From an uncultured Lentisphaeria bacterium (GTDB taxonomy: Bacteria > Fidelibacterota > UBA8477 > JABMPR01), in the NCBI GenBank assembly GCA_964469505.1, contig CAYXZO010000002.1, positions 15,923-79,922 on the forward strand: a stretch of DNA of 64,000 bases, given 5' to 3'. The position numbers and the translations under genes are program-made. The notes under the pieces were generated by a model that was not told the origin of the DNA, did not search any database, and saw only the letters and a list, made by a program, of their open reading frames with translations. Shown in pieces: positions 1 through 42,668 of this stretch. Each line of letters opens with the position of its first letter. Position 1 is the stretch's first letter.

Positions 1-211
1 ATCTCGATCCCCGGTGCGGGCATCCGACCAGGCCAGCAATAGATATCCCGGTTCGGCAACTGCCACCGCTCGCTGCCATTCGATATGCACTCCCTGCCGC
101 ACCGGCACTCCGTTATGGGGCCAAACCAACGTTTCTCCAGCGTACAGCGCACTCATCCAGAGTGCCAAAATGAATATGATTCCTGTCAAAACCTTATCAC
201 TTCTCATCCAA

Positions 212-3200
212 TCAAATCCCTTCCAGTATCTGTTCCACCAGGAGCACCGCGTCCAGAATATCCAGGCGGTCATCTCCATTAAGGTCTGCTACGCTAAATT
301 GTTCCGGTTCAGGCGATTCTTCCAAAAGAATAAACTCTAACAAAAGCGTTACATCCGTAACGTTGATCCGATAGTCGAGGTTTACATCCCCTACCGGATG
401 GACTCCCTCCACTACCTGTAGTTGAATGGTGAAACTGGTATCCGGCACATTAACCGCGTTGGTCAACAATTTCAGGGGCATTGAGTAAGTACCGGTGGCC
501 AAACCGTCGGAATTCAGCGTAAAAGTGAAATAAGCCGTACTATCAGGGGGGATCAAGCCCGTCCATTGTCCCGCCCGGAACCATCGATATGGCCGCTGAA
601 TCCTGACGGCAGTTTGATCGTTGATCATGCTGGCACCGTTGTATACCACTGCAAACCCCCGGTCTCGAGTGGCGTTTTGCATACCTACCGTGGCACTGGT
701 TCGGGGTTCATCCAGGTGCTGATACTGGAACAAGATATTTCCATCGGCGGTCAACAAAACCTGGAAAGTATAGTGCTGAGAGGTTCCCCATTTAGGCATG
801 TTGATGAAAGAAACCACCGCCGAATCTTCCTGGTTGGTCCAGAAATAGATCGAACCCTGTGTGCCACTGTCCAGATTAAGATCATCCCACCAGGGGGCAA
901 TCATGGCAGGGGGCGCCAGAGGGTATGGCAAAGGTTGATTCCGCCAGGGCGCGTCTCTGGTCAAGAATTCTACAAAGCCGTTGCTACAGATATTCAATCG
1001 GCTGAACAAACTATCATAAAAGGGGAACGGGAATCCCAATTCAAAAGGCCCGATAGCAATATCATCGGGATCACCCGGGTAGCTCACGTAGTTGGCAGGC
1101 TCGGCAATGTCTATCCACTGGTAAACCGGTCCGCCCGGCTCCCAGCTTCCCTTCCAGGTATAGCCATAGGTGTCACCCTGTTCCGCGGGACGACGATGCA
1201 CGAATAATATTTCGTCGGGAGCTTCTTTGGTCCGCTGCTCAGGTAGCGGTCCCGGATCTAGCCGGGGAGCGTCCAAATCTGCCCTCTGGATAACGTACAC
1301 CAGGGGAGTCTGGCCTCCGTTGTGCAGCAACAGGGAATCCCGCGTTTCAGACCAGGGGTTAAGCTGATAAGTGAAAGAAGCCCCGGGCCACTCCAATCGA
1401 GGTGGCGCAGCCCGCACCCCTCTGCCAGTGGTGAATTTTATCGCTTTTCCGGCTCTTAGAGGCGACATGGCAGGCGATAGAATATGATTATAACTCAGTT
1501 GCACTCCCCGCCGACGCTGGGGCCCTTGAATTCCAATGGTAGCAAAATTCTGCCAGCTATCCGTGTCGGCGATACGGCGGTACTGAAAAAGAAAAGGAGT
1601 GTCGCCGGTAGGTGTTTCTTCATCCAGCAGAAACACAACCTGGAAGCTTAGAGTGTCCAGGGAAGCGGCGTTGTGAAGGCGTGACCACTCCACCACAAAG
1701 CGACTACTATCGGAACTTAGGTAAGCAAAAACTGCATCACCAGGCGCCCGCAAATCATCCCAAAAAGGAGCAATTAAAGCCGGGGGAGCCAGCAAAGATG
1801 GCAGACGCCGGTTGTGAAAGTCCACCCGCCCACCCTGACTGCCCATAGCCAGCCAGCCGTTGGAACAAATGGTGATTTCATGGTACGTCTGACCATAAAA
1901 CGTGATGGGAATCGGTATGGAATAGGCCGTTGCAGCATCCGCGCCCTCCTGGATATCAACTATGGGTAAAGGCACACCATGGCCCCCCAAGGCCGGATCT
2001 ACTTCCAGCCAGTGATACGCGGGACGTTCCGAATAACCCCAGTCATCATCATCGAAAGCCCGGTAGCCGTACTCATCGGGGGGCAAAGGAGCAAAGGGCA
2101 TCAACTGACCGCCCCGAATCTCCATGGGAAACACAAATTCATTGTTGCCCACAGCTGCAGTCAGAGATAGGGGCTCTTGGGGAAACAAACGGGTGCGGAT
2201 CGCAAAGGAAAGGGACGCCAACTCAATGTTGCTCCCTGGGGGGAGAGCTGGCACGGCCAGCGTTTCAGGCGTGCTCAACAAAGAATCGGTTTGGAAGCTC
2301 AGGAAGGTGGCCGGCAGAGTGTCGCCCCCAGTATTGTAAAGCTCGAATCGCAGCTTTAAAGAATCGCCTGGCTCAAAAGACCATTCCACGATTTGCGGGT
2401 GGGATAGTTCAGCCCGGGGGGCTTGAATCCCCAGGGGCAAATACCAGTTATAATCCAAACTCCCGGCTACGGCTCTCACAGCAATGGCGGTCGTGGTACC
2501 GTGGGGGATATCGGCGGCACAGCTCACCCGGGTAGCTTGTGGTAGTATTAGCAGTTGCCCCGGATTCAAGAAGGGAAAATTCAAAGTCACCGGATCAAAC
2601 TGTAAAAAGGTCGCTGAAGAAGAAAACTCGAGCTGCAAATCGTGCAGTGGAACCGAACCCACCTGGAGTCGCAGGTTGAGAAATTCCGCGTGCCCGGCCC
2701 GTAATGGTCGTGCCAGAAAAATGCTGTCCGCTTGTAACCAGTTGCTGGCATTCAGGACCGGCAAATCGATCTCGTACGGCAATAGGTTGTCACCGGTTAC
2801 AGTGAGGTGGACGCTGGATTCGGAATCTGGCCGGAACGCGACATAAGCCCAGCCGGAAGCATCGGTATAGGCTCCCTGGGCATTAGTGTCATTGTATAGA
2901 AAGACAAATGCCTTGGCCACCGGATTGCCCGTGGTGTCAGTAACCCGGATCGCCAGATTGCGTGTTCCGGGGGGTATGGGAGATTCGACTTCAACCTGCA
3001 GCCGACGGGGAGCCGCGGTCCATAAACTAAGTCCGGGATCCCCCAGAATGTTGTAGATGTGGAAATAAAACTCCGGTGTTTGACCGAAAGGGGCAAAAGC
3101 GTTGTCGTGAAACTCCCGCCAGAGTTCCAATTTCCCGGCCCAGGTGGCCGGTCCCAATACGTGGAGCCCTCCGTCTAGAATACCACCATAAAGCCCCATG

Positions 3201-4687
3201 TCGATAATGTTGTTGAACATGGTATGGGTATAGAGCTCACTGGGACCAAAAAAGGCCACGGCACCACGTGGTACTCCCGAAGTTCCCAGCCGTAACCAGG
3301 CTTCACCGAAACAGGGATCACCGGGAGCGGCATAATTTCCCCCACCGCAGACAATACTGGTAACCACAGGCAAACGCCAGCCGTTGTTCAAGGAGCTATA
3401 CAAATCCTCCGTACCATAATAAGGCCCGGACCAGCCGCCGTAGGAACCAAACCCCCGGTAATTGACGAAATTGACCCCGTTGTTTATGGCGGTATTTATG
3501 AGTGCAGTAGCCTGTTGGTAGGGATAATAGACCGTATCCACCTGGGTGAAGCCGTGCTGCAACAGCTCCTGCCGAACCCAATTTTTAACCTGTTGGATGC
3601 TGGGGGCATAGGAAGCGTTCCCCACCATCAGTGCTCGCCGGTACCAGGTCGAATCACTTACCCAGGGAGTGCTTTCATAATGCACGATTTTGTTGATGAC
3701 CGTGAGCAACTGAGCATAAGAATCCACTGAGAGCCGGCCGACATACATTTCGGGGAACACGTCATCGCCCTCTAACAGGGTATAAGGCAAGTCGGTGACT
3801 TGAGGATCACCCTCGGGGTTGTTGATGTAAAACCCCGGAATACCACGGTCTTCATCACCAATGAGCAATAAATACAACGGGCGCGGTTCGTGGGTAGTCC
3901 AGTAACTCTGAATAAAGTTCTTTATGCTGTTTCTACCGGATCCAGTCTCGGCAGTTGTGACCACGGTTACCTGGTGACCTTTGCGCCGTTTCCAGTCCAC
4001 CAATTCCTGCAAATAGGGTTCAAAACCGGGAGGAGTAATAATCAGATAAGGGGGTAATGTAGTTGAGAGAGAGTCCTCAAGCTCTGGTGTCAAGGTCCAC
4101 TGCGGACTACCTGTCACCAGGTGACTGGGAGTTATGGAAAACCGTAAATGTTTCTTCACGATCACCCGCTGGCGCTGATAATCCACCACCGCTATGGGTA
4201 AATCAATCACCAGGTAATACTTGCCCAACCAGGTGATTACTTGTGTCCGCGGCCGGCTTGAGGCCCGCCCTCTCAACCGCAGCCACTGAAATCGGTTTTC
4301 AGGGCGTTCGGATTGGCCATCAAAGCCAGCGGAGATTCCGGTTCTCAATTGCGGCCGATGCAATACTACCGAATCACCGGATCCCTCTTCCCAAACCACC
4401 TGAGGCGCTCGAGAATTGCGACAGGGGACGAAAAGCGTCAGTTGTGGTAACATAGGTCCGTCGGGTAGCTGCGTAAATGAGAACGGGCCCCCACCAGGAC
4501 CCGGCTCAAGGGAGAGCAGCGCGTGCCACACCAGGGTATCAGTCGTCCGATTAAAAGTAACTTCCACTTTCAGCGTATCATGGCGCGTTTTGAGTGATAG
4601 TGAAGGTTTAGGGATATTTTGTGGTAGGGCGGGAGGGGCCAGCAGTGCCGCCCCGATTAAGATCATTCCCCAGAGCGGGCCCCGCAT
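212..4687 (-). CDS. Secreted multidomain peptidase C25 family protein (gingipain/PorU-like catalytic domain) with a C-terminal dockerin-like repeat pair
   Basis: 1491-aa ORF with an N-terminal signal peptide (MRGPLWGMILIGAALLAPPALP). The central region carries C25 hallmarks: an NYRGFGS His segment and a VTSIVCGGGNYA Cys segment. An internal duplicated domain carries ICSNGW/F...FWDDL motifs. The C-terminus, DVNLDYRINVTDVTLLLEFIL...ADLNGDDRLDILDAVLLVEQIL, matches the dockerin type I consensus (DxNxDGxxNxxD...L). A 7-nt gap to the upstream gene suggests translational coupling. Confidence 0.75.
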   Translation of the reverse strand: MRGPLWGMILIGAALLAPPALPQNIPKPSLSLKTRHDTLKVEVTFNRTTDTLVWHALLSLEPGPGGGPFSFTQLPDGPMLPQLTLFVPCRNSRAPQVVWEEGSGDSVVLHRPQLRTGISAGFDGQSERPENRFQWLRLRGRASSRPRTQVITWLGKYYLVIDLPIAVVDYQRQRVIVKKHLRFSITPSHLVTGSPQWTLTPELEDSLSTTLPPYLIITPPGFEPYLQELVDWKRRKGHQVTVVTTAETGSGRNSIKNFIQSYWTTHEPRPLYLLLIGDEDRGIPGFYINNPEGDPQVTDLPYTLLEGDDVFPEMYVGRLSVDSYAQLLTVINKIVHYESTPWVSDSTWYRRALMVGNASYAPSIQQVKNWVRQELLQHGFTQVDTVYYPYQQATALINTAINNGVNFVNYRGFGSYGGWSGPYYGTEDLYSSLNNGWRLPVVTSIVCGGGNYAAPGDPCFGEAWLRLGTSGVPRGAVAFFGPSELYTHTMFNNIIDMGLYGGILDGGLHVLGPATWAGKLELWREFHDNAFAPFGQTPEFYFHIYNILGDPGLSLWTAAPRRLQVEVESPIPPGTRNLAIRVTDTTGNPVAKAFVFLYNDTNAQGAYTDASGWAYVAFRPDSESSVHLTVTGDNLLPYEIDLPVLNASNWLQADSIFLARPLRAGHAEFLNLRLQVGSVPLHDLQLEFSSSATFLQFDPVTLNFPFLNPGQLLILPQATRVSCAADIPHGTTTAIAVRAVAGSLDYNWYLPLGIQAPRAELSHPQIVEWSFEPGDSLKLRFELYNTGGDTLPATFLSFQTDSLLSTPETLAVPALPPGSNIELASLSFAIRTRLFPQEPLSLTAAVGNNEFVFPMEIRGGQLMPFAPLPPDEYGYRAFDDDDWGYSERPAYHWLEVDPALGGHGVPLPIVDIQEGADAATAYSIPIPITFYGQTYHEITICSNGWLAMGSQGGRVDFHNRRLPSLLAPPALIAPFWDDLRAPGDAVFAYLSSDSSRFVVEWSRLHNAASLDTLSFQVVFLLDEETPTGDTPFLFQYRRIADTDSWQNFATIGIQGPQRRRGVQLSYNHILSPAMSPLRAGKAIKFTTGRGVRAAPPRLEWPGASFTYQLNPWSETRDSLLLHNGGQTPLVYVIQRADLDAPRLDPGPLPEQRTKEAPDEILFVHRRPAEQGDTYGYTWKGSWEPGGPVYQWIDIAEPANYVSYPGDPDDIAIGPFELGFPFPFYDSLFSRLNICSNGFVEFLTRDAPWRNQPLPYPLAPPAMIAPWWDDLNLDSGTQGSIYFWTNQEDSAVVSFINMPKWGTSQHYTFQVLLTADGNILFQYQHLDEPRTSATVGMQNATRDRGFAVVYNGASMINDQTAVRIQRPYRWFRAGQWTGLIPPDSTAYFTFTLNSDGLATGTYSMPLKLLTNAVNVPDTSFTIQLQVVEGVHPVGDVNLDYRINVTDVTLLLEFILLEESPEPEQFSVADLNGDDRLDILDAVLLVEQILEGI

Positions 4688-4694
4688 GGGGAGA

Positions 4695-5789
4695 TCAGCG
4701 CTCCAGTAGCTGATAAATCTTCACGCCGCGCCGGGTGGCGGCAAAGTAGCGATCACCGGAAACCACCCCCCGGTAGATATAACCCGTTTCCAGATATCCA
4801 TCCAATCGGGGCTGAGCCGGGTCCGAAATATCCACTATGTACAATGAATTTTCTCCACAAGCCACCAGGGCAAATTGTTGCCATACTGCAATGTGTTTGG
4901 CCCACCCCCGTAAAGCTATGTTGCTGAGCCAGGTTAATTGATCTCCACTCACCGAGTAAACTTCCACCCCGGCCCAATTGTCGGCCACCAGTAGGAACTC
5001 ACCCGCAAACTCGGCTTCCAGAGCTTCTCCCGGAGTATCCGCCTGAGCCAATAACTCCAGGCTATCGGTATGAACACGGTATAATGCAATGCCCAGTTCG
5101 CCCATGGTAACCGCCAGCAGCGAATCCTTGAGAGCTAATCCAACTATGTGCCCTTGAACCAATTTAACCCCTTGAGGCTGCCAATAGTTGACTTGAAAGA
5201 CCGGTTCATATTTCAGGTCCAGCTGGATCTTCTTCAACCCGTCACCCCAGTCTCCATCGGCGACAAACACCGTCAGGCTACCTAGCGTGTCACCGCTGAT
5301 TACCGCCAGGTCTTTGCAATTGGCGTCAGAAAACTGGAGGGGATCCAGAGAATAGACCCACGGATCGGAATAGTAAGTCGAGTCAATAGTCGTCAAAGAA
5401 TTATTAAGGAACCGGTAATGCACCGTTTTGCGGTCCGCTACCATCAGTAATCTTTGGCTGGGAACAGTTAAGATGTACTGGGCCACATCACCGGTTAGCG
5501 GATCTTGGTAAGTTTCTTGATAGCTGCCCCCATTTCTGGACCAGATCTCAACTCCCGCCAGTGAGGCTGCCACATAAACTTGCTCTCCCACCACAGATAC
5601 GTCTCTGGCAAAGCCAACCGTGGAGAGACTATCTTCCAGAACCAGCAGCAAATTACCACTAGTACTCAAGCGACCGGGATTCAAGCAGCTATTCAGCAAC
5701 AGAACCAACAGCAGCAGTAATACATGCTTCCAATCAACATAAATCCATCTGATTTTATCTACGGGTGAGTAATCTTTTTTGTTCATCAT
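4695..5789 (-). CDS. LVIVD-repeat β-propeller protein, probably membrane-anchored or secreted
   Basis: Repeated hydrophobic β-strand motifs of the LVIVD type (YVAASLAG, LLMVADRK, VFVADGDWG, LLAVTMGE, FLLVADNWAG, LYIVDISD). An N-terminal hydrophobic segment (LLLLLVLLLNSC) is present. The likely start is ATG at 5789 (the ATGATG in the minus sequence), which overlaps the stop of the upstream gene in an ATGA arrangement. Confidence 0.6.
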   Translation of the reverse strand: MMNKKDYSPVDKIRWIYVDWKHVLLLLLVLLLNSCLNPGRLSTSGNLLLVLEDSLSTVGFARDVSVVGEQVYVAASLAGVEIWSRNGGSYQETYQDPLTGDVAQYILTVPSQRLLMVADRKTVHYRFLNNSLTTIDSTYYSDPWVYSLDPLQFSDANCKDLAVISGDTLGSLTVFVADGDWGDGLKKIQLDLKYEPVFQVNYWQPQGVKLVQGHIVGLALKDSLLAVTMGELGIALYRVHTDSLELLAQADTPGEALEAEFAGEFLLVADNWAGVEVYSVSGDQLTWLSNIALRGWAKHIAVWQQFALVACGENSLYIVDISDPAQPRLDGYLETGYIYRGVVSGDRYFAATRRGVKIYQLLER

Positions 5790-6853
5790 AGATACATATC
5801 CCAGATAAAGTTGTACTCCAAGCGAAGCCCTCCCCACCAGCGCGTGAAGGACTTAAGTTCTTCAGCTAAAGGGTAGGCCGAGAAAACCCGCCTTTGCCGC
5901 CGGCCCCAATAAGGTTCGAGACTCAAATTAGGCCCTAGGCTCCAACGGGTAAAAATCTCCAATCGCCATTCCTGCTGATAACGCCCCGCATGAATGGGAT
6001 CCACCGCGTTATCACTGCGGTAGCGACGTTCCTGCCAATATCCATTTATCGTCAACGGCCACACTACCCTGGGGGGCCTCAACGTAAAACTGAAATTGGT
6101 CTTAAGATACCAGTAACTGCGATCAATGTCGTCCAGATGATTAGCATTAAATGTTCTACCCAGGTGAGAAACCAAGCGCCACCGGCAGCTTCTCAGCTTG
6201 CCGTTAAACCCGGTGAATACTTCCGCACTCTGTAAATTGAAGCGACTAAAAACGGCATTATATACCTCCCGACCGACTTCAACCCCCCATTGTGACTCTA
6301 CGCGTCGCTCAAACGGGAAACGCAGTTCGATGCTTCCCGTTTCGCGATTATAGTAGCATTCCTCCCTGGCCCCGGTGGGCAACAAGGGGAATTGAGCCAA
6401 ATAACCTCTGGTAAAAAGGTCGGGCAACTGGTCGTAGCGCACCACTAATCGCCGGTGACGCCCAAACCATTGATCCAGGCGCACCGTAAACGTATGGTAA
6501 TTTCGCTGGGGAATTTGTTGAAAAAAATGCTGCACAGCGCTTACTCGCAGCCGGGTAGTGTGTCCCCGCCATAACCTCAGTCGATATGTCAAACTCAATG
6601 TCAGTTGTTGTTCCCAGCTGTCGCGATAGGTGACTCCCGGCAGGTAATCTGGTTCGTACCGCAGCCGTGCTTCCTCCGCAGGGGCCAAATTCAGTGGGTT
6701 GTGATGAAACGCCGAAGCCAGGCCAAAGGAAAACTCCAGGGGAGCCATGAATTTGCTCACAACCGAAGTCGCCCCCGACAGGTCCTGGCCAGGCCCTAAA
6801 CCTAAGCCAAGACTCAGGCAAAAGATCGCCCATTTATTTTTGTTTTTTGCCAC
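5786..6853 (-). CDS. Putative outer-membrane β-barrel protein (hypothetical)
   Basis: Signal-like N-terminus (KNKNKWAIFCLSLGLGLG). Alternating amphipathic strands run throughout, and the C-terminus ends in LEYNFIWDMYL, a terminal aromatic/hydrophobic pattern typical of OM barrels. The probable GTG start at 6853 has GGAG about 13 nt upstream; the longer ORF to 6886 is also possible. Confidence 0.5.
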   Translation of the reverse strand: MAKNKNKWAIFCLSLGLGLGPGQDLSGATSVVSKFMAPLEFSFGLASAFHHNPLNLAPAEEARLRYEPDYLPGVTYRDSWEQQLTLSLTYRLRLWRGHTTRLRVSAVQHFFQQIPQRNYHTFTVRLDQWFGRHRRLVVRYDQLPDLFTRGYLAQFPLLPTGAREECYYNRETGSIELRFPFERRVESQWGVEVGREVYNAVFSRFNLQSAEVFTGFNGKLRSCRWRLVSHLGRTFNANHLDDIDRSYWYLKTNFSFTLRPPRVVWPLTINGYWQERRYRSDNAVDPIHAGRYQQEWRLEIFTRWSLGPNLSLEPYWGRRQRRVFSAYPLAEELKSFTRWWGGLRLEYNFIWDMYL

Positions 6854-7727
6854 GGGACGAAGTCGTCTCCTCGAAAAAGCGCACAAAAACCTGCCGGTTG
6901 GAGTCCAGCAGAGAGATTTTTAAACGATGGGAACCGGATTTCAGTTGAAGGCGGCAGGTGCGCCATTTCCCGGGGACCAATTCTTCGTGTCCTTCCACCG
7001 TAGCTGTGTCGGAACTGGTGGTAGAGTAATGGTAAGTCCCCACCAATCGTCCATTGTCCCTTATCTGCAGGCGATAATCCTGAGCTCCATTCATCCAGTA
7101 TTCTAGCGCTAGGCGACTGAGCAATTCGATGGTTTTAGGGCCTTCCACTTCCAACAAAAGCGGTTTTTCGGGAGTGACTTTGAAATACGGCAGTCTCTTC
7201 TGACCAATAAGTATGTAGGCCGTATCAGCTGGCGCTAAAATCTGCGCTTTGAGTCGGCGCCGAGACTTTTTCCCTTGGCTGTGTTTGACAAGTCGGAACA
7301 ATAAGGGACCTGGGCTCTCTTTACGTCGCACTCGGATGGTATGTACTCCATCTCCAACCTGAAAGTAGTCCAGGGAAGCTCTGGTGTACCGATGATTGGG
7401 ATGCTGAGAGGATCGAATCCCTGAAAGTCGGGTCTGATGTTTGATCTGACGGGGGGGTGATTGATCAACAGTCACTTCAAAACTGTAAGACACCTCTGAA
7501 TCGCCTTTGCGGGACAATGCCACCGCCCGTGAGTACAGCTTCAGGGTAGCTGGTCCGTGAACTTGATAAACCAGCTCCTTGTTTTTCGTAAAATGGTAAA
7601 TCCGGCGCTTGCCTTGGATGAGCAGTATTTCCCGGGACTGGCGGGGTTCCTGAGGTTTAATCACCTGACCCCATAGAATCAGGGGAGCCAGAACCCATAA
7701 AAGCACCGCCTTATAAGTAGCCATCAA
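6834..7727 (-). CDS. Secreted basic (Lys/Arg-rich) hypothetical protein
   Basis: Signal peptide MMATYKAVLLWVLAPLILWGQ. Very high K/R content (KKSRRRLKAQ, RVRRKESPG, SSRGKKQK). It overlaps both neighbouring genes, which suggests operon coupling. Confidence 0.55.
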   Translation of the reverse strand: MMATYKAVLLWVLAPLILWGQVIKPQEPRQSREILLIQGKRRIYHFTKNKELVYQVHGPATLKLYSRAVALSRKGDSEVSYSFEVTVDQSPPRQIKHQTRLSGIRSSQHPNHRYTRASLDYFQVGDGVHTIRVRRKESPGPLLFRLVKHSQGKKSRRRLKAQILAPADTAYILIGQKRLPYFKVTPEKPLLLEVEGPKTIELLSRLALEYWMNGAQDYRLQIRDNGRLVGTYHYSTTSSDTATVEGHEELVPGKWRTCRLQLKSGSHRLKISLLDSNRQVFVRFFEETTSSRGKKQK

Positions 7728-8829
7728 TTTCCTCCGGCCGGTATGAAAGTCGGATGTGATAACGGCTGTAGAGAGCCACGCCCACTACCATGGTTAGGAT
7801 AAAAGCTAAACCAAGGCTCACCGCCGTCAGGTTATAACGCTCCTCAGCAAAAAGGGGGCCTACACCCGGTGGGGGCGAAGGCACCGCGGCATAGGGGTAG
7901 TTGAACTGCTTAAACAGTCTCTTAATGTTCAGCAAATGGATTACTGGAATTCCCCTGCTTCCCAGACGGTGAATCAATCCGCGTCCAGGTAATTCCTGGA
8001 GATCCCGCACTGTCAGCAATCCCGGTTTTAATAGACGGGCCGGTTGAGCACCTCCCAGAGCGGCAGCCCCCCCACCCACATTTACGTATGCCCGATAATT
8101 TTTAAGCGGGGTAAAAGATTCCAGTAATGCCAATCGCTTACGAATTATTTCATTCAAGGACTTGGCTTCTAAAAGAGGGACCTGGTTGCGCTTTGCCGCT
8201 TGTCTCAACAAACGGCGGCCTTTAGGACTTAGACGGCGGCCAATATCACCCCCACCCCCCAGGGTCGCCGCCCGGCTATGATAATCCACTACTCCACTGT
8301 CACGAAGAACCCGCTCCATATCCAGCCAGGTAAAATTCTCGTCATTAGCTCCCCACTGGGAAGCTCCCAGGGAGGTTACGATAATGGGCACCAGATCCAT
8401 TTCATAAGCCGCGCAATAAACCGCTAGGTTAGCTCCCGGCATGGAGCCGGTTAAAGTGACCACAATCGTGTCTCCAGCTTTTACCCCCGTTCGAAGGAGG
8501 AGATCCACCACCATCGCCGCCATGTTGGGGTCCAGCACGGAGATTTTCGCGTCTAAATCCCCCTGATCAGTGGTAATAAGGCTGTACTGGTGCCCAATTA
8601 GTCCTGTCTCATTGGGATCGTTGACCGGATCTACCATTACCGCCTGCTGCAAATGGTAATTCTTCAGGACCTCCAAAGCCCGGGCCATGCGCTTGACGGC
8701 CCTTATTTTTACTTCATAGCCAGGAGCTTTGCGTTCCACCCGTAAAGCACTAGTTCCATAAAAAACAATGGCGGTAACGATGGCCATGACCACCAGGACC
8801 TCGGTGCGCTGGAGGGCGGGTCTATACAA
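7711..8829 (-). CDS. Poly-γ-glutamate system accessory membrane protein (PgsW-like, TIGR04332-type), found with pgsBC where PgsA/CapA is absent
   Basis: 372-aa ORF lying immediately after pgsC, which it overlaps by 8 nt. It has an N-terminal TM helix (VLVVMAIVTAIVFY) and a C-terminal TM helix (VSLGLAFILTMVVGVALY). It carries none of the metallophosphatase motifs of PgsA/CapA. The family assignment is by size, topology and context only. Confidence 0.4.
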   Translation of the reverse strand: MYRPALQRTEVLVVMAIVTAIVFYGTSALRVERKAPGYEVKIRAVKRMARALEVLKNYHLQQAVMVDPVNDPNETGLIGHQYSLITTDQGDLDAKISVLDPNMAAMVVDLLLRTGVKAGDTIVVTLTGSMPGANLAVYCAAYEMDLVPIIVTSLGASQWGANDENFTWLDMERVLRDSGVVDYHSRAATLGGGGDIGRRLSPKGRRLLRQAAKRNQVPLLEAKSLNEIIRKRLALLESFTPLKNYRAYVNVGGGAAALGGAQPARLLKPGLLTVRDLQELPGRGLIHRLGSRGIPVIHLLNIKRLFKQFNYPYAAVPSPPPGVGPLFAEERYNLTAVSLGLAFILTMVVGVALYSRYHIRLSYRPEEIDGYL

Positions 8830-9271
8830 AAATCTTTCCTCCCTCCACTAACATCAGCACCATCTGGACGATAGCGGCGGCAATAAACAACATGCTCAAG
8901 GTACGCAATACGCCCTGGCGATCCATCCAGCTGGCAATTAAACCGGGGATTATATACCCGATGGAAGTTAGGTCTACTCCTGCCAGTGCTGGCATTTGTC
9001 CTAAATAGTTCCGGAAAACAAATCCGAAGATGAAACCCAGCAGCAGCGCTAACACCAGTCGCCGGCGCCCATAAATCAAAAGCCATCGGGCCAGAGACTT
9101 TATCACCAAATAGACTAGTAAAGCAGCCAGAAAAGTGGCCACTACTCGTGACGGGTAATGGAGATTGAGGGCAATATACCCCGGCACAACTATACCCCCG
9201 GCCGCTACTCCGTATCCCTCAGCAAAGGCCAGGGAGAGCACAATCCCTAATCCGACCGCCAGTTCAATCAT
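8822..9271 (-). CDS. pgsC: Poly-γ-glutamate biosynthesis protein PgsC/CapC
   Basis: 149-aa polytopic membrane protein. It aligns by eye along its whole length with Bacillus CapC: LSLAFAEGYGVAAGGIVVPGYIAL matches LSLIFAEKTGIVPAGLVVPGYLGL, and IGYIIPGLIASWMDRQG matches IGIIVPGLIANTIQKQG. Confidence 0.9.
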   Translation of the reverse strand: MIELAVGLGIVLSLAFAEGYGVAAGGIVVPGYIALNLHYPSRVVATFLAALLVYLVIKSLARWLLIYGRRRLVLALLLGFIFGFVFRNYLGQMPALAGVDLTSIGYIIPGLIASWMDRQGVLRTLSMLFIAAAIVQMVLMLVEGGKIFV

Positions 9272-10449
9272 GCTGCCTGGTGCTGCTCCAACTTTTCCAA
9301 TAAGGCAAAACCACGCCCCACGATATTTCCCATCCCAAACACTAACGTGTGGGGCGGGAGCTGACGGAGGGTTTTCACCACTTCCTCAGGCTGTGATTCC
9401 TCCGGGAAAAGATACAGGTTGGCGCCGAATTGCTTTTCCAATTCTTTCCTTAATTTCGCGGAGGCTTCTCCAATGTAAATCAATCGCTGCGGACGAATGG
9501 CGTCGGTTACCAGCTCCAGTAATTGCCTGGTGCGGGAGCGTCTATCAGTGCGCGTGTTGAGTAAAACCGCGATATGGTGAGGATCGAAATCGGGGCGGGA
9601 AGTAACCAGCTCCCAAATCTGAGCTGTAGATTGGGGATCATTAGCGGCGAAGGCATTCGCGAAGTACAAAGGTTCACCCGTAAGTGAAGTGAATCGCATG
9701 ATGCGTAGGGCACCCGGATCCGGAGCCATCTTCCGCATTCCTTCCAGGGCTTGCTCCGCGTCAACCCCTAAATGGGTACACACGGCCAGCGCCAAAGCCA
9801 CATTGTCCCGATGTTCCAAATAGGTGAAATCTCTTAAAACTTCTTCAGGCAATTCAGCGGGATCGACCAGGTGGAAAGAAGTTCCTCTTTGGTCTGCAAT
9901 GCGGCGGTATAAATCGGCGAAATGCTTTTCGGTAGTAAAAAAATGCCCCCGACGAGGGATGGTATTGGCAAGGCTGCGGGCGATCTGCTCCAGGGTGGGG
10001 CCCATTTCTTCCAGGTGGTCCGGCCGTACATTGGTAATAACCCCATGAGTGGCTCGGATCATTTGATGCTCCGTTATCCACTGGTAAGCAGGTTGAACCG
10101 CCATGCATTCCATGACCACCGCCTGGGGATAGAACCGTCCGAAATACCGCAGGAAACGCGTTTGCTCTCCAATTCCCGCTCCTCCAAGGCGCTGAATGGG
10201 ATGATCCTTTCCCAGGAGGTCAATTATTCGGGGTTGAGAGCCGGTGGTTTTAGCCCAGGTTGCCATACCTCCGGCTCTAAGTCCGGCGGCAATCAGTCTG
10301 GTTACACTTGATTTCCCACGAGTTCCATTCACATGAATTCGATAAGGTATCCGTCTTACGGCCCGATCTAGTTCTACCCGCTCCCAGCCCAGCCAGGTTA
10401 ACATCCCGCCCAGCAATACCCCCAGGCCAACTAACGGATCAGTCATGTT
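9268..10449 (-). CDS. pgsB: Poly-γ-glutamate synthetase PgsB/CapB (Mur-ligase family amide ligase)
   Basis: IHVNGTRGKSSVTRL (ATP-binding P-loop), VMECMAVQPAYQ and VITNVRPDHLEEMGPTLEQIA match B. subtilis PgsB (INGIRGKSTVTRL, VSECMAVNPDYQ, VNVLEDHMDVMGPTLDEIA). The start is ATG at 10449 (MTDPLVGLG...), preceded by GGGAAGGGAG. Confidence 0.9.
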   Translation of the reverse strand, partial: NMTDPLVGLGVLLGGMLTWLGWERVELDRAVRRIPYRIHVNGTRGKSSVTRLIAAGLRAGGMATWAKTTGSQPRIIDLLGKDHPIQRLGGAGIGEQTRFLRYFGRFYPQAVVMECMAVQPAYQWITEHQMIRATHGVITNVRPDHLEEMGPTLEQIARSLANTIPRRGHFFTTEKHFADLYRRIADQRGTSFHLVDPAELPEEVLRDFTYLEHRDNVALALAVCTHLGVDAEQALEGMRKMAPDPGALRIMRFTSLTGEPLYFANAFAANDPQSTAQIWELVTSRPDFDPHHIAVLLNTRTDRRSRTRQLLELVTDAIRPQRLIYIGEASAKLRKELEKQFGANLYLFPEESQPEEVVKTLRQLPPHTLVFGMGNIVGRGFALLEKLEQHQAA

Positions 10450-10562
10450 ATTTGCTCCCTTCCCGGCCTCCAGCGGTTTAGCTGCCGGAAATATACGCAC
10501 CCGAGTCAGGGAATTAAGTCGTAATCAAATGCCCCCTATGAAGTCATTAAAATGTATTAAAT

Positions 10563-12525: not shown

Positions 12526-15440
12526 CCGTTACCATCTCAAGAATCGCTAAAACTCCATTTACCAAGCTTTTCCAGAGCACTGCCATTCTTTGCGCAACAT
12601 TGCTAGGAACCTTGCCTACCTTCGGCAAAGAATTGCCGCTCAGGATTTACGATCCGGAAAAATATCTGGTTCAATCGCAGGTCAAATGCCTGTTGGAAAC
12701 CAGCAATCACCAGATCTGGGTCGGGACGCTGGGGGGAATCAACATTTTCACCGGAGGAAGCAACTACCAATTGACCACCAAAGATGGCCTGCCCAGTGGC
12801 TGGATAAACGCCCTACTTGAGTATCCCGACGGGGTGGTTTGGATCGGCACCAAAGGCGGACTGGCGAAGGTCACTGTTGACCAGCCCCAAGCGGTGCTGC
12901 TCATTCGAGGTAGCACTGCTCTGGAAATCCGCTCGCTGGGAGTATTTCAGGGAAAAGTTCTGGCGGGTACTTTTCAGAAGGGCATCTTTCAGGCAGAACA
13001 AGATAGTCTAGTTCCCTGGTCCCAAGCCGGTAACCTTTCTGGTTATCCTGTCTATGACCTCTGTTCAAATAAAGACACTTTATGGCTGGCTACCTACCAG
13101 GGGATTATTGAATATCATGATACAACGATCACGCGTTTGCTTCCTCAACAGATAGTTCTTTCCCTGGAATATTGGCGTAAAGCTATCTGGGCTGGCACCA
13201 CCGACGGCTTGTTCCGGATAGTCAGCGATAAGGCCCAAAAAGTGAAAGGGGAGATGATTATCCCCGACATGACCTCTGGTTCTGATAAACTGCTGATTAG
13301 CTCTTATTTCAGCGGCTTGCTGACGTTGGAAAATGGTCAATGGCATAACTACGACTCCCATAACGGCCTCCCGGAAACTTTTTATAAAGCCGTATTGATA
13401 GATCACCAGGGAAGCATATGGTTGGGAACCGATGGTATCGGTTTGATCCAGATTCTACCCTACCCCATCGTTAATTATGGGCCTACCTCAGGTTTAAGCA
13501 ACTCAATGGTAAACTACATCTCATTTACCCCGGAAAACTGGGTAGTGGTGAGTACTGATGAAGGCGTTTACATCAGCCATGACAAAGTTGATTTCAAACT
13601 CTTAGAGGAATCTTCTGGTTCCCGGGTATGGGCTTGCGTTCCTTACTATGGCGGCAGATTCCTGATGGGCACCGACGAAGGCACCTTCATCCTGTCAAAG
13701 TCCGGTAAAAAGGAACGAAAGATCTGGCCTTTCGCACTACTTGACGCCCTGACAGATGGTGATACCGTATGGGCCGCTACAGAACGAGGTCCCTGGATGG
13801 AAGTCAATGGAAAATGGCAACCAGTTTCTGGCGTTCCAGTTATTACCGGTGTCTATTGCCACGCCTTAACTCGGGGGCTGCGGGGCATCTGGTTTGCTAC
13901 CGCTGATGGTTTGTTGCTGATTCAGGGGAACGAAATCACCAGATGGAGGGACTCCACCAACCAAGCCCGCAACATGGTTTGGGATGTGGTGGCCGATGGG
14001 CAGGGCTACCTGTGGGTTGGAACCGACGGCGGCCTCATGAGAATAAGAGAGGACCTGCAGGGAGCCAGCTGGTTTACGGAAGCTGGCTCCGGATTTCCCT
14101 CGGATATTATCTATTCGCTGGTGTTGATCGGTCCCCGCGATTTATGGTGTGGGTCAGCCAAAGGGCTTTTACACCTGACCAAATTCCACTGGGAATTGTT
14201 TGATTTCAATGACGGACTACCGCAGAATGAATTCAACAGTAACGCTTTGGCTTATCACGACTCAAAACTATGGGCGGGTGGCATAAAAGGTCTCACCTGT
14301 ATTTCCAACCTGGCTGCGCTCAATCACCCGATTCCCCGCTGTTACCCCACCCGTTTTTATGAGAACGAAGAATCGGTGAGAACCTGGGCCTCCGAATATC
14401 CGTCCGATCCGCCTACTTTAAAAGTGGACCTGGGAACCGACGATTTCCTATGTCCCCGCCCGGTTTTCCGCTGGCGACTAAACCCGCAGGAATCCCAATG
14501 GATAGAACTTAAGAATGCTCACCAACTACAACTCTCAGCTCTCTCTCCCGGCCATTACCAGCCCCAGGTTCAGGCTGGAGATGGTCGTCGCTGGGGACCT
14601 ATCACTAATTTACCAGCTTTTGCCGTAGCACCGCCCTTGTGGCAACGTGGCTGGTTCCAAACCTTATTAGCCTTAATAGTAGCACTTTTGACCCTAGAAA
14701 TCTCCGCAGCCCTAACAGAAAACAGGCGACGACAAGAATTATTACGTCGGCAAAGTGAGCAGATTCAATTAGCCCGAATCTTTAATCAAGGCCTACTTCC
14801 CCTTGAAGAGAAATCTATCCCCGGGTTAAAAGTCTCCGTCGTAACTCATCCGCGGGAAGAATTCAGTGGCGATTTTTATGTACTGTTAAACCTCGGGAAT
14901 GACCGCTTTGCCCTTGTATTGGGGGACGTTGCCGGCCATGGGCTTGAGACGAGTTACCTCAATACCTTTGTAAAAATTGACCTGCAAGAAGTAAGGGACA
15001 AACGACATTCCTTGGATGAATGGTTGTCCCACTTGAATCGCAAATTATATCTGGTGCAAAAGCAGGGGCTAAACATCGCCCTGACCATTTTGGAGTATGA
15101 AACTTATACCAAGAAAAGTCGCATCTTTCTGGCTGGTAACCCAGCCCCCTGGTTATTGAACGCAAATGAAGAATTACAAACGCTGGATATTTCGGGCCAC
15201 CCTCCCCTGGGAGTTTTCCCGGAATTGCAACCCCATTGGACCCCTTTGCCGGAAGGGTGGCAAGCACTGCTCCTATTTACTGATGGATTTGAATTTCATC
15301 CATACGGCTCAGCTTTGTCCCAGCACATCCAGCATTTGCAGGCAGGAAATCTTGAAAAGCTGATAGCTCTAGAATCCACCACGGTCAATCCATCAGAACG
15401 GGACGACTGGACGGTAGTGCTCCTTTGCCATCTCAGCTAA
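12522..15440 (+). CDS. Membrane regulator with a periplasmic two-component-regulator-propeller/Y_Y_Y domain, one TM helix, and a cytoplasmic SpoIIE/PP2C-type phosphatase domain
   Basis: Repeated WxGTxxGL propeller blades. A TM helix WFQTLLALIVALLTLEISAAL is followed by a PP2C/SpoIIE signature (GDFYVLLNLGNDRFALVLGDVAGHGLETS). The start is ATG at 12522, in an ATGA overlap with the dgt stop. Confidence 0.8.
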   Translation: MTVTISRIAKTPFTKLFQSTAILCATLLGTLPTFGKELPLRIYDPEKYLVQSQVKCLLETSNHQIWVGTLGGINIFTGGSNYQLTTKDGLPSGWINALLEYPDGVVWIGTKGGLAKVTVDQPQAVLLIRGSTALEIRSLGVFQGKVLAGTFQKGIFQAEQDSLVPWSQAGNLSGYPVYDLCSNKDTLWLATYQGIIEYHDTTITRLLPQQIVLSLEYWRKAIWAGTTDGLFRIVSDKAQKVKGEMIIPDMTSGSDKLLISSYFSGLLTLENGQWHNYDSHNGLPETFYKAVLIDHQGSIWLGTDGIGLIQILPYPIVNYGPTSGLSNSMVNYISFTPENWVVVSTDEGVYISHDKVDFKLLEESSGSRVWACVPYYGGRFLMGTDEGTFILSKSGKKERKIWPFALLDALTDGDTVWAATERGPWMEVNGKWQPVSGVPVITGVYCHALTRGLRGIWFATADGLLLIQGNEITRWRDSTNQARNMVWDVVADGQGYLWVGTDGGLMRIREDLQGASWFTEAGSGFPSDIIYSLVLIGPRDLWCGSAKGLLHLTKFHWELFDFNDGLPQNEFNSNALAYHDSKLWAGGIKGLTCISNLAALNHPIPRCYPTRFYENEESVRTWASEYPSDPPTLKVDLGTDDFLCPRPVFRWRLNPQESQWIELKNAHQLQLSALSPGHYQPQVQAGDGRRWGPITNLPAFAVAPPLWQRGWFQTLLALIVALLTLEISAALTENRRRQELLRRQSEQIQLARIFNQGLLPLEEKSIPGLKVSVVTHPREEFSGDFYVLLNLGNDRFALVLGDVAGHGLETSYLNTFVKIDLQEVRDKRHSLDEWLSHLNRKLYLVQKQGLNIALTILEYETYTKKSRIFLAGNPAPWLLNANEELQTLDISGHPPLGVFPELQPHWTPLPEGWQALLLFTDGFEFHPYGSALSQHIQHLQAGNLEKLIALESTTVNPSERDDWTVVLLCHLS

Positions 15441-15522
15441 TTCTTCGGCCGCAACAGTTGTCTCCCATCATAATCCGTTTAATTTTGCCATCCATGTCGG
15501 TTTGTAACAAAGGAGTTTTAAA

Positions 15523-16278
15523 ATGAAAATCGTGGTCACTGCCAAACAGGTTCCTGACACGGAAACAAAGGTGGTCATTGATTCCACCGGGAAACGGCTG
15601 GACCCCGCGGGGGTAAAAATGATTCTTAATCCATATGATGAATTCGCTGTGGAAGAAGCCCTCCGCATTAAAGAAAAAACTGGCGAAGGTGAAGTAATTG
15701 TCCTGGGCATCGGCAATGCCGATTCAGCCTCGGCCCTACGCTCAGCCCTGGCCATGGGGGCCGACAGGGGGATTCTTCTGGAACTGGACGATTTCGCCAT
15801 GCGGGACAGTTACCAACTGGCCAATTTACTGGCGGCCGAAATTCGCGAGCTGGCGCCGGACTTAGTTCTGGCCGGCAAAATAGCCATTGATGATTACGGT
15901 CACCAGGTCCCAGCCATGGTAGCCGCTCTACTAGATTGGCCTTTGATTACTCTGGCGCGGCAAATCACTTTAGAGGAGAACCAAGTAGTTGTAGAAAGAG
16001 ACATTGAAGGCGGTCGTGAAACACTGAAAGCTGCCCTGCCCTGTGTCATTACCGCTGAAAAAGGGCTGAATGAACCGCGCTATCCTTCACTACGCGGTAT
16101 AATGCAGGCCAAACGTAAACCGTTGGATACTAGGGCCGTTTCTATTGAAGGCGAAAGTATTCAGATTCTTGAAATGACCTATCCCCAACAGAAACCACCC
16201 GGGCGAATCGTGGGAGAAGGTCCGGATGCTGTACCGGAATTAGTTCGCATGTTACACCAAGAAGCTAAAGTGATATAA
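15523..16278 (+). CDS. etfB: Electron transfer flavoprotein β subunit
   Basis: N-terminus MKIVVTAKQVPDTETKVVIDS... is the EtfB signature. RBS AAAGGAG upstream. Confidence 0.9.
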   Translation: MKIVVTAKQVPDTETKVVIDSTGKRLDPAGVKMILNPYDEFAVEEALRIKEKTGEGEVIVLGIGNADSASALRSALAMGADRGILLELDDFAMRDSYQLANLLAAEIRELAPDLVLAGKIAIDDYGHQVPAMVAALLDWPLITLARQITLEENQVVVERDIEGGRETLKAALPCVITAEKGLNEPRYPSLRGIMQAKRKPLDTRAVSIEGESIQILEMTYPQQKPPGRIVGEGPDAVPELVRMLHQEAKVI

Positions 16279-16288
16279 GGGGGTAGTC

Positions 16289-17260: not shown

Positions 17261-17330
17261 CGCTTACAGTTACAGGAGACAAGGGTGGACAGCAGTCCAC
17301 CCTTTTTTGCATTAAAGGAAAAGCTTACTG

Positions 17331-18023: not shown

Positions 18024-18348
18024 AAAGCTGTAGTGGCACCTTTGATTGGATTAACGTCATAAAAATTCCTCAGATACCTGAGGTTCATTAATCGGGATCT
18101 GGCCTTCTTGGTTACAGCTTCCATGGGCAACCGGGCCCCTCGAAACGAGAAAGAACGCTAAACGCCGACATGGGCGCCTTTTTCTTAAGGAAATAAAAAA
18201 GCAGGCAAACCCTTTAATGCTGAGTTCACCCGTCGGCGGGGGCTAGCCACAGATCTCGATTGTCTTAATAGCATTACCCAACCAGAAAACCAGAAAGAGC
18301 CTTTTCAAGCAATATTAAAAGGCGGAATAAACCCTAGTCGTTATGTAT

Positions 18349-18378
18349 TAAATAAAAAGCCCGGCGGTTGCCGGGCTT
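18349..18378 (-). terminator. Rho-independent terminator of the 18401-19474 gene
   Basis: On the minus strand, GCCCGGCAACCGCCGGGCT is followed by TTTTTATTT. An 8-bp GC stem closes a tetraloop. Confidence 0.75.
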
Positions 18379-18400
18379 AACGTAAGAATCAGCTTCTTGC

Positions 18401-20376: not shown

Positions 20377-20393
20377 TTAGGGCTCCTTTCTAT

Positions 20394-41304: not shown

Positions 41305-41362
41305 ACTCTCTTCTCGTAGAATAATGAAGTATTCAACAAATAAAAATAGAGGATGTGATGAT

Positions 41363-42658: not shown

Positions 42659-42668
42659 GGGTAGAAAG

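What the first reader, a model, noticed from the sequence alone, without database searches (positions are those of the whole stretch)
212..10500. Candidate diderm-type poly-γ-glutamate synthesis, export and anchoring module
Seven genes lie on one strand with stop/start overlaps or gaps of 8 nt or less. In order they are pgsB, pgsC, the PgsW-like gene, the basic secreted protein, the OM β-barrel, the LVIVD propeller and the 1491-aa C25 peptidase. PgsB and PgsC are the cytoplasmic-membrane PGA synthetase core. There is no PgsA/CapA, and no CapD-like γ-glutamyltranspeptidase. The co-transcribed genes instead encode envelope proteins: a Lys/Arg-rich periplasmic protein well suited to bind a polyanion, a β-barrel that could serve as the unknown OM conduit for PGA in diderms, and a C25 peptidase. 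C25 enzymes include PorU, which acts as a sortase-like transpeptidase. A C25 enzyme could therefore stand in for CapD in anchoring or trimming γ-glutamyl polymer. I am not aware of this architecture being described for PGA systems.
Basis: partly seen in the sequence, partly recalled or inferred. Interest (0 to 1): 0.8.

Follow-up and report, generated by a model that had tools for sequence, protein, structure and literature searches.

The report
Poly-γ-glutamate gene cluster with outer-membrane module
A poly-γ-glutamate synthase operon from an uncultured marine Marinimicrobia-like bacterium is always joined to three unnamed envelope genes (a basic binding-module protein, a 14-stranded outer-membrane barrel and a propeller lipoprotein), which are the best candidate so far for how a double-membraned bacterium exports this polymer.

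Summary
Seven minus-strand genes (pgsB, pgsC, a TIGR04332 protein "W", a basic protein "K", a barrel "O", an LVIVD lipoprotein "L" and a 1491-aa C25 protein) are joined by overlaps of 4-20 nt or a 7-nt gap. The operon continues past the window start.

The synteny is not accidental. K-O-L follows pgsBCW in 56 of 57 species-level genomes, mostly Marinimicrobia plus Ignavibacteria and one Bacteroidia. In 49 metagenome loci seeded from O, every locus with enough sequence has pgsBCW-K upstream and L downstream. K and O match no Pfam, NCBIfam or PDB sequence.

AlphaFold models show O as a 14-stranded barrel (pLDDT 92.7), closest to CymA and OmpG, with a mostly cationic lumen. K is two jelly-roll domains of the carbohydrate-binding-module type, basic in all homologs. 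I read pgsBCW-KOL as a diderm PGA synthesis and export module (confidence 0.62).

The C25 part is only partly supported. C25 genes do flank the cluster across phyla. But they are not PorU (48 bits against a 420 cut-off). All 119 relatives keep the catalytic Cys and lack the canonical His. A conserved, apparently active M14 carboxypeptidase downstream is a better candidate for trimming.

The parts
9268..10500 (-). pgsB, the poly-gamma-glutamate synthase ligase subunit. The ORF is 410 aa from a GTG; the source-contig gene call is 392 aa, starting at ATG 10446.
   Evidence: TIGR04012, 415 bits (cut-off 222.7); Mur_ligase_M. Gene call.
8822..9271 (-). pgsC (CapC), the membrane subunit of the synthase, 149 aa. 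Its ATG overlaps the pgsB stop by 4 nt.
   Evidence: TIGR04011, 129 bits (cut-off 96); PF14102, 114 bits.
7711..8829 (-). W, a TIGR04332 'poly-gamma-glutamate system protein', 372 aa. It has N- and C-terminal hydrophobic helices flanking a conserved domain of about 300 aa. It is the likely substitute for PgsA.
   Evidence: TIGR04332, 318 bits (cut-off 100). No Pfam hit and no PDB hit. The topology is read from the sequence and is an inference.
6834..7724 (-). K, a secreted basic protein of 296 aa with a signal peptide and two beta-jelly-roll domains of the carbohydrate-binding-module type. It is the proposed periplasmic binder or guide for the polyanion.
5786..6853 (-). O, a 14-stranded outer-membrane beta-barrel of 355 aa with a signal peptide. 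It is the proposed outer-membrane conduit for PGA.
4695..5789 (-). L, an acidic LVIVD-repeat (beta-propeller) lipoprotein of 364 aa, always encoded directly after O. It is the proposed partner of the barrel.
   Evidence: PF08309, 46 bits. Lipobox Cys in the window and in nearly all homologs. Median pI 4.35. O-L adjacency holds in all loci, including distant ones.
212..4687 (-). C25-like protein of 1491 aa: signal peptide, C25 domain (about residues 214-555), an Ig-like domain, two NIDO-like domains and a C-terminal dockerin. The catalytic Cys447 is kept; the canonical His is replaced by Phe413.
   Evidence: Same-length relatives (about 1500 aa) in Marinimicrobia at 38-44% identity.
1..207 (-). 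5' end of the next operon gene, a 1005-aa protein with a T9SS C-terminal sorting domain. It runs off the window. On the source contig it is followed by an M14 carboxypeptidase and two more C25 genes.
   Evidence: Source-contig locus L090, genes 14481-17498, 17503-19821, 19818-22901 and 23021+. M14 motifs HAEE and NRNY.

Best explanation
pgsB, pgsC, W, K, O and L form one conserved operon core that makes poly-gamma-glutamate (PGA) and moves it out of a double-membraned cell.

Proposed steps:
1. PgsB/PgsC polymerise glutamate at the inner membrane. This rests on family membership.
2. W is a two-helix membrane protein with a periplasmic domain and takes the place of PgsA. This is inferred.
3. K is a secreted, strongly cationic protein built of two polymer-binding-type jelly-roll domains. 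It captures or guides the anionic chain in the periplasm. This is inferred.
4. O is a monomeric 14-stranded barrel of the CymA/OmpG type with a net-positive lumen. It is the outer-membrane pore. The fold is shown; the function is inferred.
5. L is an acidic beta-propeller lipoprotein that is an obligate partner of O, acting as a cap, gate or release/retention factor. This is inferred.

The neighbouring secreted proteins are surface accessory factors: the C25-like proteins, a roughly 1000-aa protein with a T9SS C-terminal domain, and an M14 carboxypeptidase. They carry either a T9SS sorting domain or, like the window's C25 protein, a dockerin. Of these, the M14 enzyme is the most plausible trimmer of PGA. 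The role of the C25-like proteins is unresolved.
For: Family membership:
- pgsB, pgsC and TIGR04332 all score above the curated cut-offs.

Synteny from the synthase side:
- Of 57 species-level genomes with at least 3.3 kb after W, 56 have K-O-L in the same order.
- These span Marinimicrobia, three Ignavibacteria and a Salinivirgaceae contig.

Synteny from the barrel side:
- 49 metagenome loci were seeded only with O.
- All that have room carry B-C-W-K upstream and L downstream.
- The O family is tiny: 70 clusters at 50% identity among 1.84 billion representatives.
- So O is essentially never found away from pgsBCW.

Divergent loci:
- L092 has pgsB-pgsC-[W and O in one 734-aa ORF]-L.
- L093 has an extra N-terminal domain fused to O, followed by L.

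Structures:
- Its inward-facing residues are net positive in 98% of members.
- K is two jelly-roll domains resembling carbohydrate-binding modules and the BcsB polymer-guiding domains.
- K is basic in all 69 homologs.

Targeting and packing:
- K and O have signal peptides and L has a lipobox.
- Gene junctions overlap or are at most 7 nt apart, and terminator-like sites are not enriched (17 found against 12.8 +/- 4.0 expected).
Against: - There is no experimental or expression evidence that PGA is made or exported.
- The lumen-charge estimate comes from strand periodicity, not from coordinates, and the window's own protein is only +4.
- The most conserved parts of O are the predicted extracellular loops. 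That could mean a surface receptor or anchor role rather than a plain pore.
- L is acidic, which does not suggest PGA binding.
- K is missing in at least one divergent locus (L092), so it is not indispensable.
- The location of L (periplasmic or surface face) is unknown.
Confidence: 0.62

Rival explanations
1. K-O-L is an outer-membrane anchoring or retention device rather than a pore. In this reading PGA crosses the outer membrane some other way or stays periplasmic. O, with its conserved outer loops, and lipoprotein L would hold the polymer at the cell surface, as the 18-strand barrel Wzi does for K-antigen capsules.
For: - The extracellular loops of O are its most conserved parts (top-residue frequency 0.45, against 0.34 for strands and 0.28 for periplasmic turns).
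- O is always paired with a lipoprotein.
- No CapD-type anchoring enzyme is present.
Against: - No other candidate outer-membrane conduit is encoded in any of the roughly 130 loci.
- The fold is closest to open large-pore channels (CymA, OmpG).
- The lumen-facing residues are cationic in 98% of members, which fits passage of a polyanion.
Confidence: 0.15
2. The C25 protein is a PorU-like transpeptidase that replaces CapD. It would attach PGA covalently to a surface acceptor or trim it.
For: - C25 genes flank the cluster consistently. One lies within 3.5 kb upstream of pgsB in 49 of 59 genomes. One lies within 6.5 kb downstream of L in 29 of 30. Three of three Ignavibacteria loci have one.
- In the window clade the C25 gene follows L after 7 nt.
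- The catalytic Cys is invariant in 119 relatives.
- The proteins carry dockerin or T9SS sorting domains, so they reach the cell surface.
Against: - It is not PorU: 47.8 bits against a 420-bit cut-off.
- The canonical catalytic His is Phe413 here and is F/Y/L/W in all relatives. No invariant His exists anywhere in the domain.
- Close same-length paralogs sit in unrelated neighbourhoods (L008, L009).
- These genomes carry many C25 genes, which the literature reads as extracellular proteases (PMC8359207).
- No C25 enzyme is known to act on gamma-glutamyl bonds (my own knowledge).
Confidence: 0.13
3. The secreted genes (C25-like, the roughly 1000-aa protein and M14) are an independent nutritional protease set. 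In this reading they share a neighbourhood or regulon with the PGA genes and have no direct action on PGA. For example, a PGA matrix might simply retain exo-enzymes and their products near the cell.
For: - Marinimicrobia are described as degraders of high-molecular-weight organic matter with extracellular C25 peptidases (PMC8359207).
- C25 paralogs occur elsewhere in the genome.
- The position of the C25 genes varies (upstream or downstream), whereas B-C-W-K-O-L is rigid.
- The Ignavibacteria loci lack the M14 gene and the roughly 1000-aa gene.
Against: - In the window the genes are joined to L and to each other by 4-7 nt gaps or overlaps.
- The ten-gene order P-BCW-KOL-T-M-P recurs in at least 32 species.
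- The C25-pgs link survives between phyla.
Confidence: 0.35
4. The PgsBC-type ligase here does not make free PGA. Instead it polyglutamylates a periplasmic or surface acceptor such as a protein, peptidoglycan or lipid, and K-O-L handles that conjugate.
For: - PgsA is absent, and W, K, O and L are all uncharacterised.
- No product has ever been measured in these phyla; literature searches were negative.
Against: pgsB and pgsC score as equivalogs well above the curated cut-offs. TIGR04332 is named by NCBI as a PGA-system protein.
Confidence: 0.08

Closest known systems
Bacillus PgsBCA(E)/CapBCA(E) poly-gamma-glutamate synthetase with CapD or PgdS
   Same: The PgsB ligase and PgsC membrane subunit are equivalog-level matches. 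As in Bacillus, the operon encodes the synthase first and accessory or processing genes after it. In B. subtilis, pgdS lies downstream of pgsBCAE (my own knowledge).
   Different: - There is no PgsA/CapA, no CapD (a gamma-glutamyltranspeptidase) and no NlpC/P60 PgdS.
- A TIGR04332 protein sits in PgsA's position.
- The host has an outer membrane.
- The operon adds three unnamed envelope proteins (K, O, L) plus secreted proteins with T9SS sorting or dockerin domains.
Synthase-dependent exopolysaccharide export across the outer membrane (alginate AlgK/AlgE, PNAG PgaA/PgaB, cellulose BcsB/BcsC, Pel PelB/PelC)
   Different: - The polymer is a polyamide, not a polysaccharide.
- The barrel has 14 strands, not 16-18, and has no TPR domain.
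- There is no sequence relationship.
CymA (Klebsiella oxytoca) and OmpG, 14-stranded monomeric large-pore channels
   Different: - Sequence identity is 5-8%, so homology is not shown.
- CymA and OmpG are uptake channels for sugars.
- O has no evident N-terminal plug segment, has conserved outer loops, and has an obligate lipoprotein partner.
Gingipains and PorU (peptidase family C25)
   Same: The Pfam C25 domain scores 207 bits. The closest solved structures are RgpB and Kgp (E 1e-30). The catalytic Cys is conserved. The proteins are secreted or surface-targeted, with a T9SS C-terminal domain in paralogs.
   Different: - The catalytic His is replaced by a hydrophobic residue throughout this subfamily.
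- It fails the PorU models (48 and 34 bits against 420 and 450).
- It has extra NIDO-like and dockerin domains.

Membership tests
PGA synthetase core (PgsB/PgsC) | PgsB: an amide ligase of the Mur-ligase type matching TIGR04012 above its cut-off | tested here: met
   415.3 bits against 222.7; Mur_ligase_M domain.
PGA synthetase core (PgsB/PgsC) | PgsC/CapC membrane subunit adjacent to PgsB | tested here: met
   TIGR04011, 128.9 bits against 96.45; PF14102; 4-nt overlap with pgsB.
Bacillus-type PgsBCA(E)/CapBCAD system | PgsA/CapA (PGA_cap domain) present | tested here: not met
   No PGA_cap hit on any cluster gene or on the stretches of the window that were annotated. The whole genome was not examined.
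Bacillus-type PgsBCA(E)/CapBCAD system | CapD-type gamma-glutamyltranspeptidase, or a PgdS-type hydrolase, for anchoring or release | tested here: not met
   No G_glu_transpept or NlpC/P60 domain in the cluster or the annotated parts of the window.
TIGR04332 PGA-system protein | Score above the curated cut-off, and position next to pgsBC | tested here: met
   317.6 bits against 100. It lies directly after pgsC here, in 80 genome loci, and in every metagenome locus with enough upstream sequence.
PGA production (phenotype) | Gamma-linked polyglutamate is actually made and reaches the cell surface or the medium | not testable with these tools
   All carriers found are uncultured MAGs or metagenome contigs. 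No literature was found.
PorU (T9SS sortase) | Match to NF033707 / PorU-related models above their cut-offs | tested here: not met
   47.8 bits against 420, and 34.1 against 450.
Active C25 cysteine peptidase (gingipain-like) | Catalytic Cys (RgpB Cys244) | tested here: met
   Cys447 aligns to Cys244 and is invariant in 119 relatives.
Active C25 cysteine peptidase (gingipain-like) | Catalytic His (RgpB His211, motif N-Y-x-G-H-G) | tested here: not met
   Phe413 in the window. Among relatives the position is F 42, Y 34, L 30, W 5 and never H. No invariant His exists in the domain.
Synthase-dependent polymer porins (AlgE/PgaA/BcsC/PelB) | 16-18-stranded barrel, usually with a TPR periplasmic partner or domain | tested here: not met
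CymA/OmpG-type 14-stranded monomeric channel (fold class) | 14 antiparallel strands and high structural similarity | tested here: met
Carbohydrate-binding-module-like jelly roll (fold class) for K | Beta-sandwich or jelly-roll domain resembling CBM6/35/36 | tested here: inconclusive

The most novel reading that the evidence does not exclude
K-O-L is a previously unrecognised outer-membrane secretion machine dedicated to a poly-amino-acid. It would consist of a cationic tandem jelly-roll adaptor, a CymA-like 14-strand pore and a propeller lipoprotein. The conserved flanking surface proteins (the 'Cys-only' C25-like proteins and the M14 carboxypeptidase) would be its anchoring and trimming enzymes. 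If so, the globally abundant marine SAR406/Marinimicrobia, and also Ignavibacteria, would be coated in or shed poly-gamma-glutamate.
Probability: 0.15. Interest if true: 0.85.

Novelty: new variant of a known kind. Interest (0 to 1): 0.72.

Why it matters
PGA synthesis is understood only in Gram-positive bacteria. PGA production has been shown in one Gram-negative, Fusobacterium nucleatum (Candela 2009, cited in PMC4928254). As far as I know, how PGA crosses an outer membrane is unknown.

This cluster supplies three concrete, testable candidate proteins that have no family name. They are exclusively and reciprocally linked to pgsBC + TIGR04332 across at least two phylum-level lineages.

It also predicts that SAR406/Marinimicrobia, among the most abundant deep-ocean bacteria, make an anionic polyamide envelope or exopolymer. 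That would bear on particle attachment, metal binding, phage defence and the marine pool of glutamate polymers.

Separately, the large 'C25 peptidase' family routinely counted as extracellular proteases in these phyla lacks the canonical catalytic His. That calls those annotations into question.

Tried and rejected
- **Chance synteny: rejected.**
- **Mobile element or island: no sign.** GC is flat at 0.50-0.55 and the neighbours are housekeeping genes.
- **Word-indexed search with O alone.** It found only O itself and one relative at 57% identity.
- **First metagenome scan with the two-sequence O alignment.** It found nothing.
- **Last homologous-protein search.** I used a concatenated K+O profile to get both families at once. 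It returned only P0001, probably because low-complexity words filled the candidate list. That search was wasted.
- **Structure prediction with locus-derived sequences.** I worked around this with hits from the search of protein representatives (for O) and ids from the listing of cluster members (for K).
- **A8 alignment as a metagenome pattern query.** It was too diverse to build a pattern from.
- **afdb50 fold library.** It was unavailable.
- **Profile searches of O, K, W and L against PDB sequences.** They gave nothing.
- **Sigma-70 promoter and terminator scans.** They were uninformative, with counts at shuffle level, and the consensus may not apply to this phylum.
- **Literature searches.** PgsW, TIGR04332, Marinimicrobia + polyglutamate, and PgsB/PgsC + FCB taxa turned up no description of this architecture.
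Full report
**1. What is in the window**

Seven minus-strand ORFs occupy 212-10500.

| Gene | Coordinates | Evidence |
|---|---|---|
| pgsB | 9268-10500 | TIGR04012, 415 bits against a 223 cut-off |
| pgsC | 8822-9271 | TIGR04011, 129 against 96; Pfam CapC |
| W | 7711-8829 | TIGR04332 'poly-gamma-glutamate system protein', 318 against 100 |
| K | 6834-7724 | no Pfam or NCBIfam hit |
| O | 5786-6853 | no Pfam or NCBIfam hit |
| L | 4695-5789 | LVIVD repeat protein with a lipobox |
| C25 | 212-4687 | Peptidase_C25 207 bits, NIDO-like, C-terminal Dockerin_1 |

Using the gene calls of the source contig, the junctions are overlaps of 4, 8, 14, 20 and 4 nt and one 7-nt gap.

The window is part of a 124.9-kb JGI metagenome contig, which is also present as an 88-kb NCBI MAG contig. 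On that contig the array continues beyond the window start. It runs: a 1005-aa protein with a T9SS C-terminal domain (4-nt gap), an M14 carboxypeptidase (4-nt gap), a 1027-aa C25 protein, and a 1392-aa C25 protein with a propeptide.

The stretches of the window I had annotated (roughly 10.6-59 kb) are housekeeping: pst-phoU, ligA, fusA, accC, lptFG, ETF and two-component systems. They contain no PgsA (PGA_cap) or gamma-glutamyltranspeptidase domain.

**2. Is the synteny real?**

*From the synthase side.* I scanned one genome per GTDB species with a two-sequence W alignment. This returned 80 loci.
- Nearly all are Marinimicrobia (Neomarinimicrobiota/Fidelibacterota).
- Three are Ignavibacteria (L077, L079, L089) and one is a Salinivirgaceae contig (L076).
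- I ran iterated HMM searches of the seven window proteins against six-frame ORFs of all loci. K-O-L follows B-C-W, in that order, in 56 of the 57 loci with at least 3.3 kb after W.
- The one exception (L062) has an 850-nt gap where K should be.

*From the barrel side.* A full HMMER scan of 1.84 billion representatives found only 70 clusters related to O, almost all 330-390 aa. A metagenome scan seeded only by O returned 49 loci. Every one with enough sequence has B-C-W-K upstream and L downstream.

*Divergent relatives keep the link in altered form.*
- L091 is K-O-L.
- L092 is pgsB-pgsC-[W and O as one 734-aa ORF]-L, with no K.
- L093 and L094 carry O with an extra N-terminal domain of about 170 aa, followed by L. 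That domain is weakly K-like (hhalign E 0.011).

The closest full relative (L007) shares 52, 60, 54, 38, 34, 41 and 42% identity for B, C, W, K, O, L and C25 respectively. The conservation of order is therefore not due to recent common descent. I conclude that B-C-W-K-O-L is one functional unit.

**3. What K, O and L are**

*O.* The model used a 56-sequence alignment and gave pLDDT 92.7 and pTM 0.86, with 14 transmembrane beta-strands.
- The polymer porins PelB (14.1) and BcsC (12.0), and PorV (11.5), score lower.
- I assigned inward-facing positions by hydrophobic periodicity. The lumen-facing residues are net positive in 98% of the 56 family members, with a median of +8. The window protein is +4.
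- The predicted outer loops carry the motifs NPLNLS, F-x-x-F/D, DRSY, DP-x-H-x-GR and LKSF. They are more conserved than the strands or the periplasmic turns.

*K.* The model used 29 sequences and gave pLDDT 82.4. It has a signal peptide followed by two all-beta jelly-roll domains.
- K is basic in all 69 homologs, with median pI 9.8 and net charge +20.

*L.* It is an acidic lipoprotein (median pI 4.35) with an LVIVD propeller. In most homologs the lipobox Cys is followed by a conserved acidic motif, MEPNTEDLW.

None of K, O, W or L has a sequence-detectable relative in the PDB.

**4. Most likely mechanism**

- PgsB/PgsC polymerise glutamate at the inner membrane. This rests on family membership. 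The roles follow PMC4928254, where PgsB and PgsC form the catalytic site and PgsA removes and transports the chain.
- PgsA is absent. W has two hydrophobic helices around a conserved domain, and occupies PgsA's position and probably its role. This is an inference.
- The anionic chain then meets K, a cationic tandem binding-module protein, and leaves through O, a wide 14-strand barrel with a cationic lining. L is the obligate lipoprotein partner of O.
- The logic copies synthase-dependent exopolysaccharide systems: synthase, periplasmic binder, dedicated barrel and lipoprotein. The parts are unrelated, the barrel class differs, and the cargo is a polyamide.
- What is shown: gene identity, reciprocal synteny, folds and charge patterns.
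- What is inferred: PGA production, protein locations, contacts between the proteins, and the direction of transport.

**5. The C25 question**

The association is real but looser than for K-O-L.
- In the window's clade (L007, L010-L018) a C25 gene of about 1500 aa follows L directly.
- In most Marinimicrobia a 1200-aa C25 gene (propeptide, C25, NIDO, dockerin) sits directly upstream of pgsB, and another sits after an M14 gene.
- The dominant order P-BCW-KOL-T-M-P occurs in 32 loci.
- A C25 gene lies within 3.5 kb upstream of pgsB in 49 of 59 loci, and within 6.5 kb downstream of L in 29 of 30. Ignavibacteria have a 1264-aa C25 protein with a T9SS C-terminal domain upstream.

- The protein fails the PorU models: 48 bits against 420.
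- HMMER alignment to RgpB puts Phe413 at the catalytic His211 and Cys447 at Cys244.
- In 119 relatives the Cys is invariant. The His position is F, Y, L or W and never H, and no other His is invariant.
- Same-length paralogs occur in unrelated neighbourhoods.

A PorU- or CapD-like transpeptidase role therefore remains speculation. By contrast, the M14 carboxypeptidase keeps the HAEE and NRNY motifs and is found downstream in 28 of 30 loci. M14 enzymes and their structural relatives include gamma-glutamyl-cleaving enzymes (my own knowledge). It is the better candidate for a trimming enzyme.

**6. Novelty**

I found no paper linking PgsB/PgsC to these phyla, to an outer-membrane component, or to TIGR04332. 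The literature treats Marinimicrobia C25 proteins as gingipain-like exoproteases (PMC8359207).

The synthase is a known kind. The K-O-L module and its invariant coupling to pgsBC+W appear undescribed. I therefore rate this a new variant of a known kind.

**7. Verdict**

| Item | Rating |
|---|---|
| Observation | confirmed |
| Interpretation | partly supported (module yes; C25-as-CapD not shown) |
| Confidence in the synthesis-and-export reading | 0.62 |
| Interest | 0.72 |

Noticed in passing
window 212-4687 (C25 domain, residues about 214-555); relatives P0012-P0130: The whole subfamily of 'C25 peptidases' in Marinimicrobia and other FCB-group bacteria keeps the catalytic Cys in 100% of 119 members. 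The canonical catalytic His position carries F, Y, L or W, and no invariant His exists in the domain. Counting these proteins as gingipain-like extracellular proteases may be unsafe.
   Followed up: partly
L092:2489-4693 (protein P0198, 734 aa): In a divergent metagenome locus the TIGR04332 protein W and the barrel O are one uninterrupted ORF: W domain, a C-terminal helix, a signal- or lipobox-like segment, then the barrel. K is absent. The order is pgsB-pgsC-[W·O]-LVIVD. This is either a true fusion or the loss of a stop codon.
   Followed up: partly
L093:37-1551 (protein P0165, 504 aa): A barrel homolog carries an extra N-terminal all-beta-looking domain of about 170 aa. It aligns weakly to K's second jelly-roll domain (hhalign E 0.011) and is followed by an LVIVD gene. 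This may be a K-O fusion.
   Followed up: partly
L090:17503-19821 (source contig, just outside the window start); L039:17089-19533: An M14 zinc carboxypeptidase with intact HxxE and NRNY motifs lies downstream of the cluster in 28 of 30 genomes. The L039 copy has Pfam-scored CarboxypepD_reg and T9SS sorting domains.
   Followed up: partly
L039:982-4723: In the majority Marinimicrobia arrangement, type IV pilus / type II secretion genes (a PilB-like ATPase with a c-di-GMP-binding MshEN domain, PilC, and a prepilin peptidase) lie directly upstream of the C25-pgs cluster and point the same way.
   Followed up: no
L homologs in L010-L089 (for example L038, L070, L059): The lipobox Cys of the LVIVD lipoprotein is followed in most homologs by a conserved acidic motif, (M/I)EPN(T/D)E(D/E)LW. 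This is reminiscent of the acidic surface-export signal of Bacteroidota lipoproteins. The window's own copy lacks it (CLNPGRLSTSG).
   Followed up: no
L007:10001-19060; L026, L040 and L043 after L: The C25 gene after L is tandemly duplicated in some relatives (two genes of about 1500 aa at about 42% identity to the window's). In a few loci it is split into several C25-like ORFs.
   Followed up: no
window about 30634-31463 (+): Two adjacent small genes (135 and 141 aa) both hit the COX1 (haem-copper oxidase subunit I) family. This may be a split or degenerate gene.
   Followed up: no
window 39640-44048 (+): A three-gene set encodes an unannotated 554-aa protein, a DUF6175 protein and an LPP20-family lipoprotein. 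It is another unnamed envelope module.
   Followed up: no
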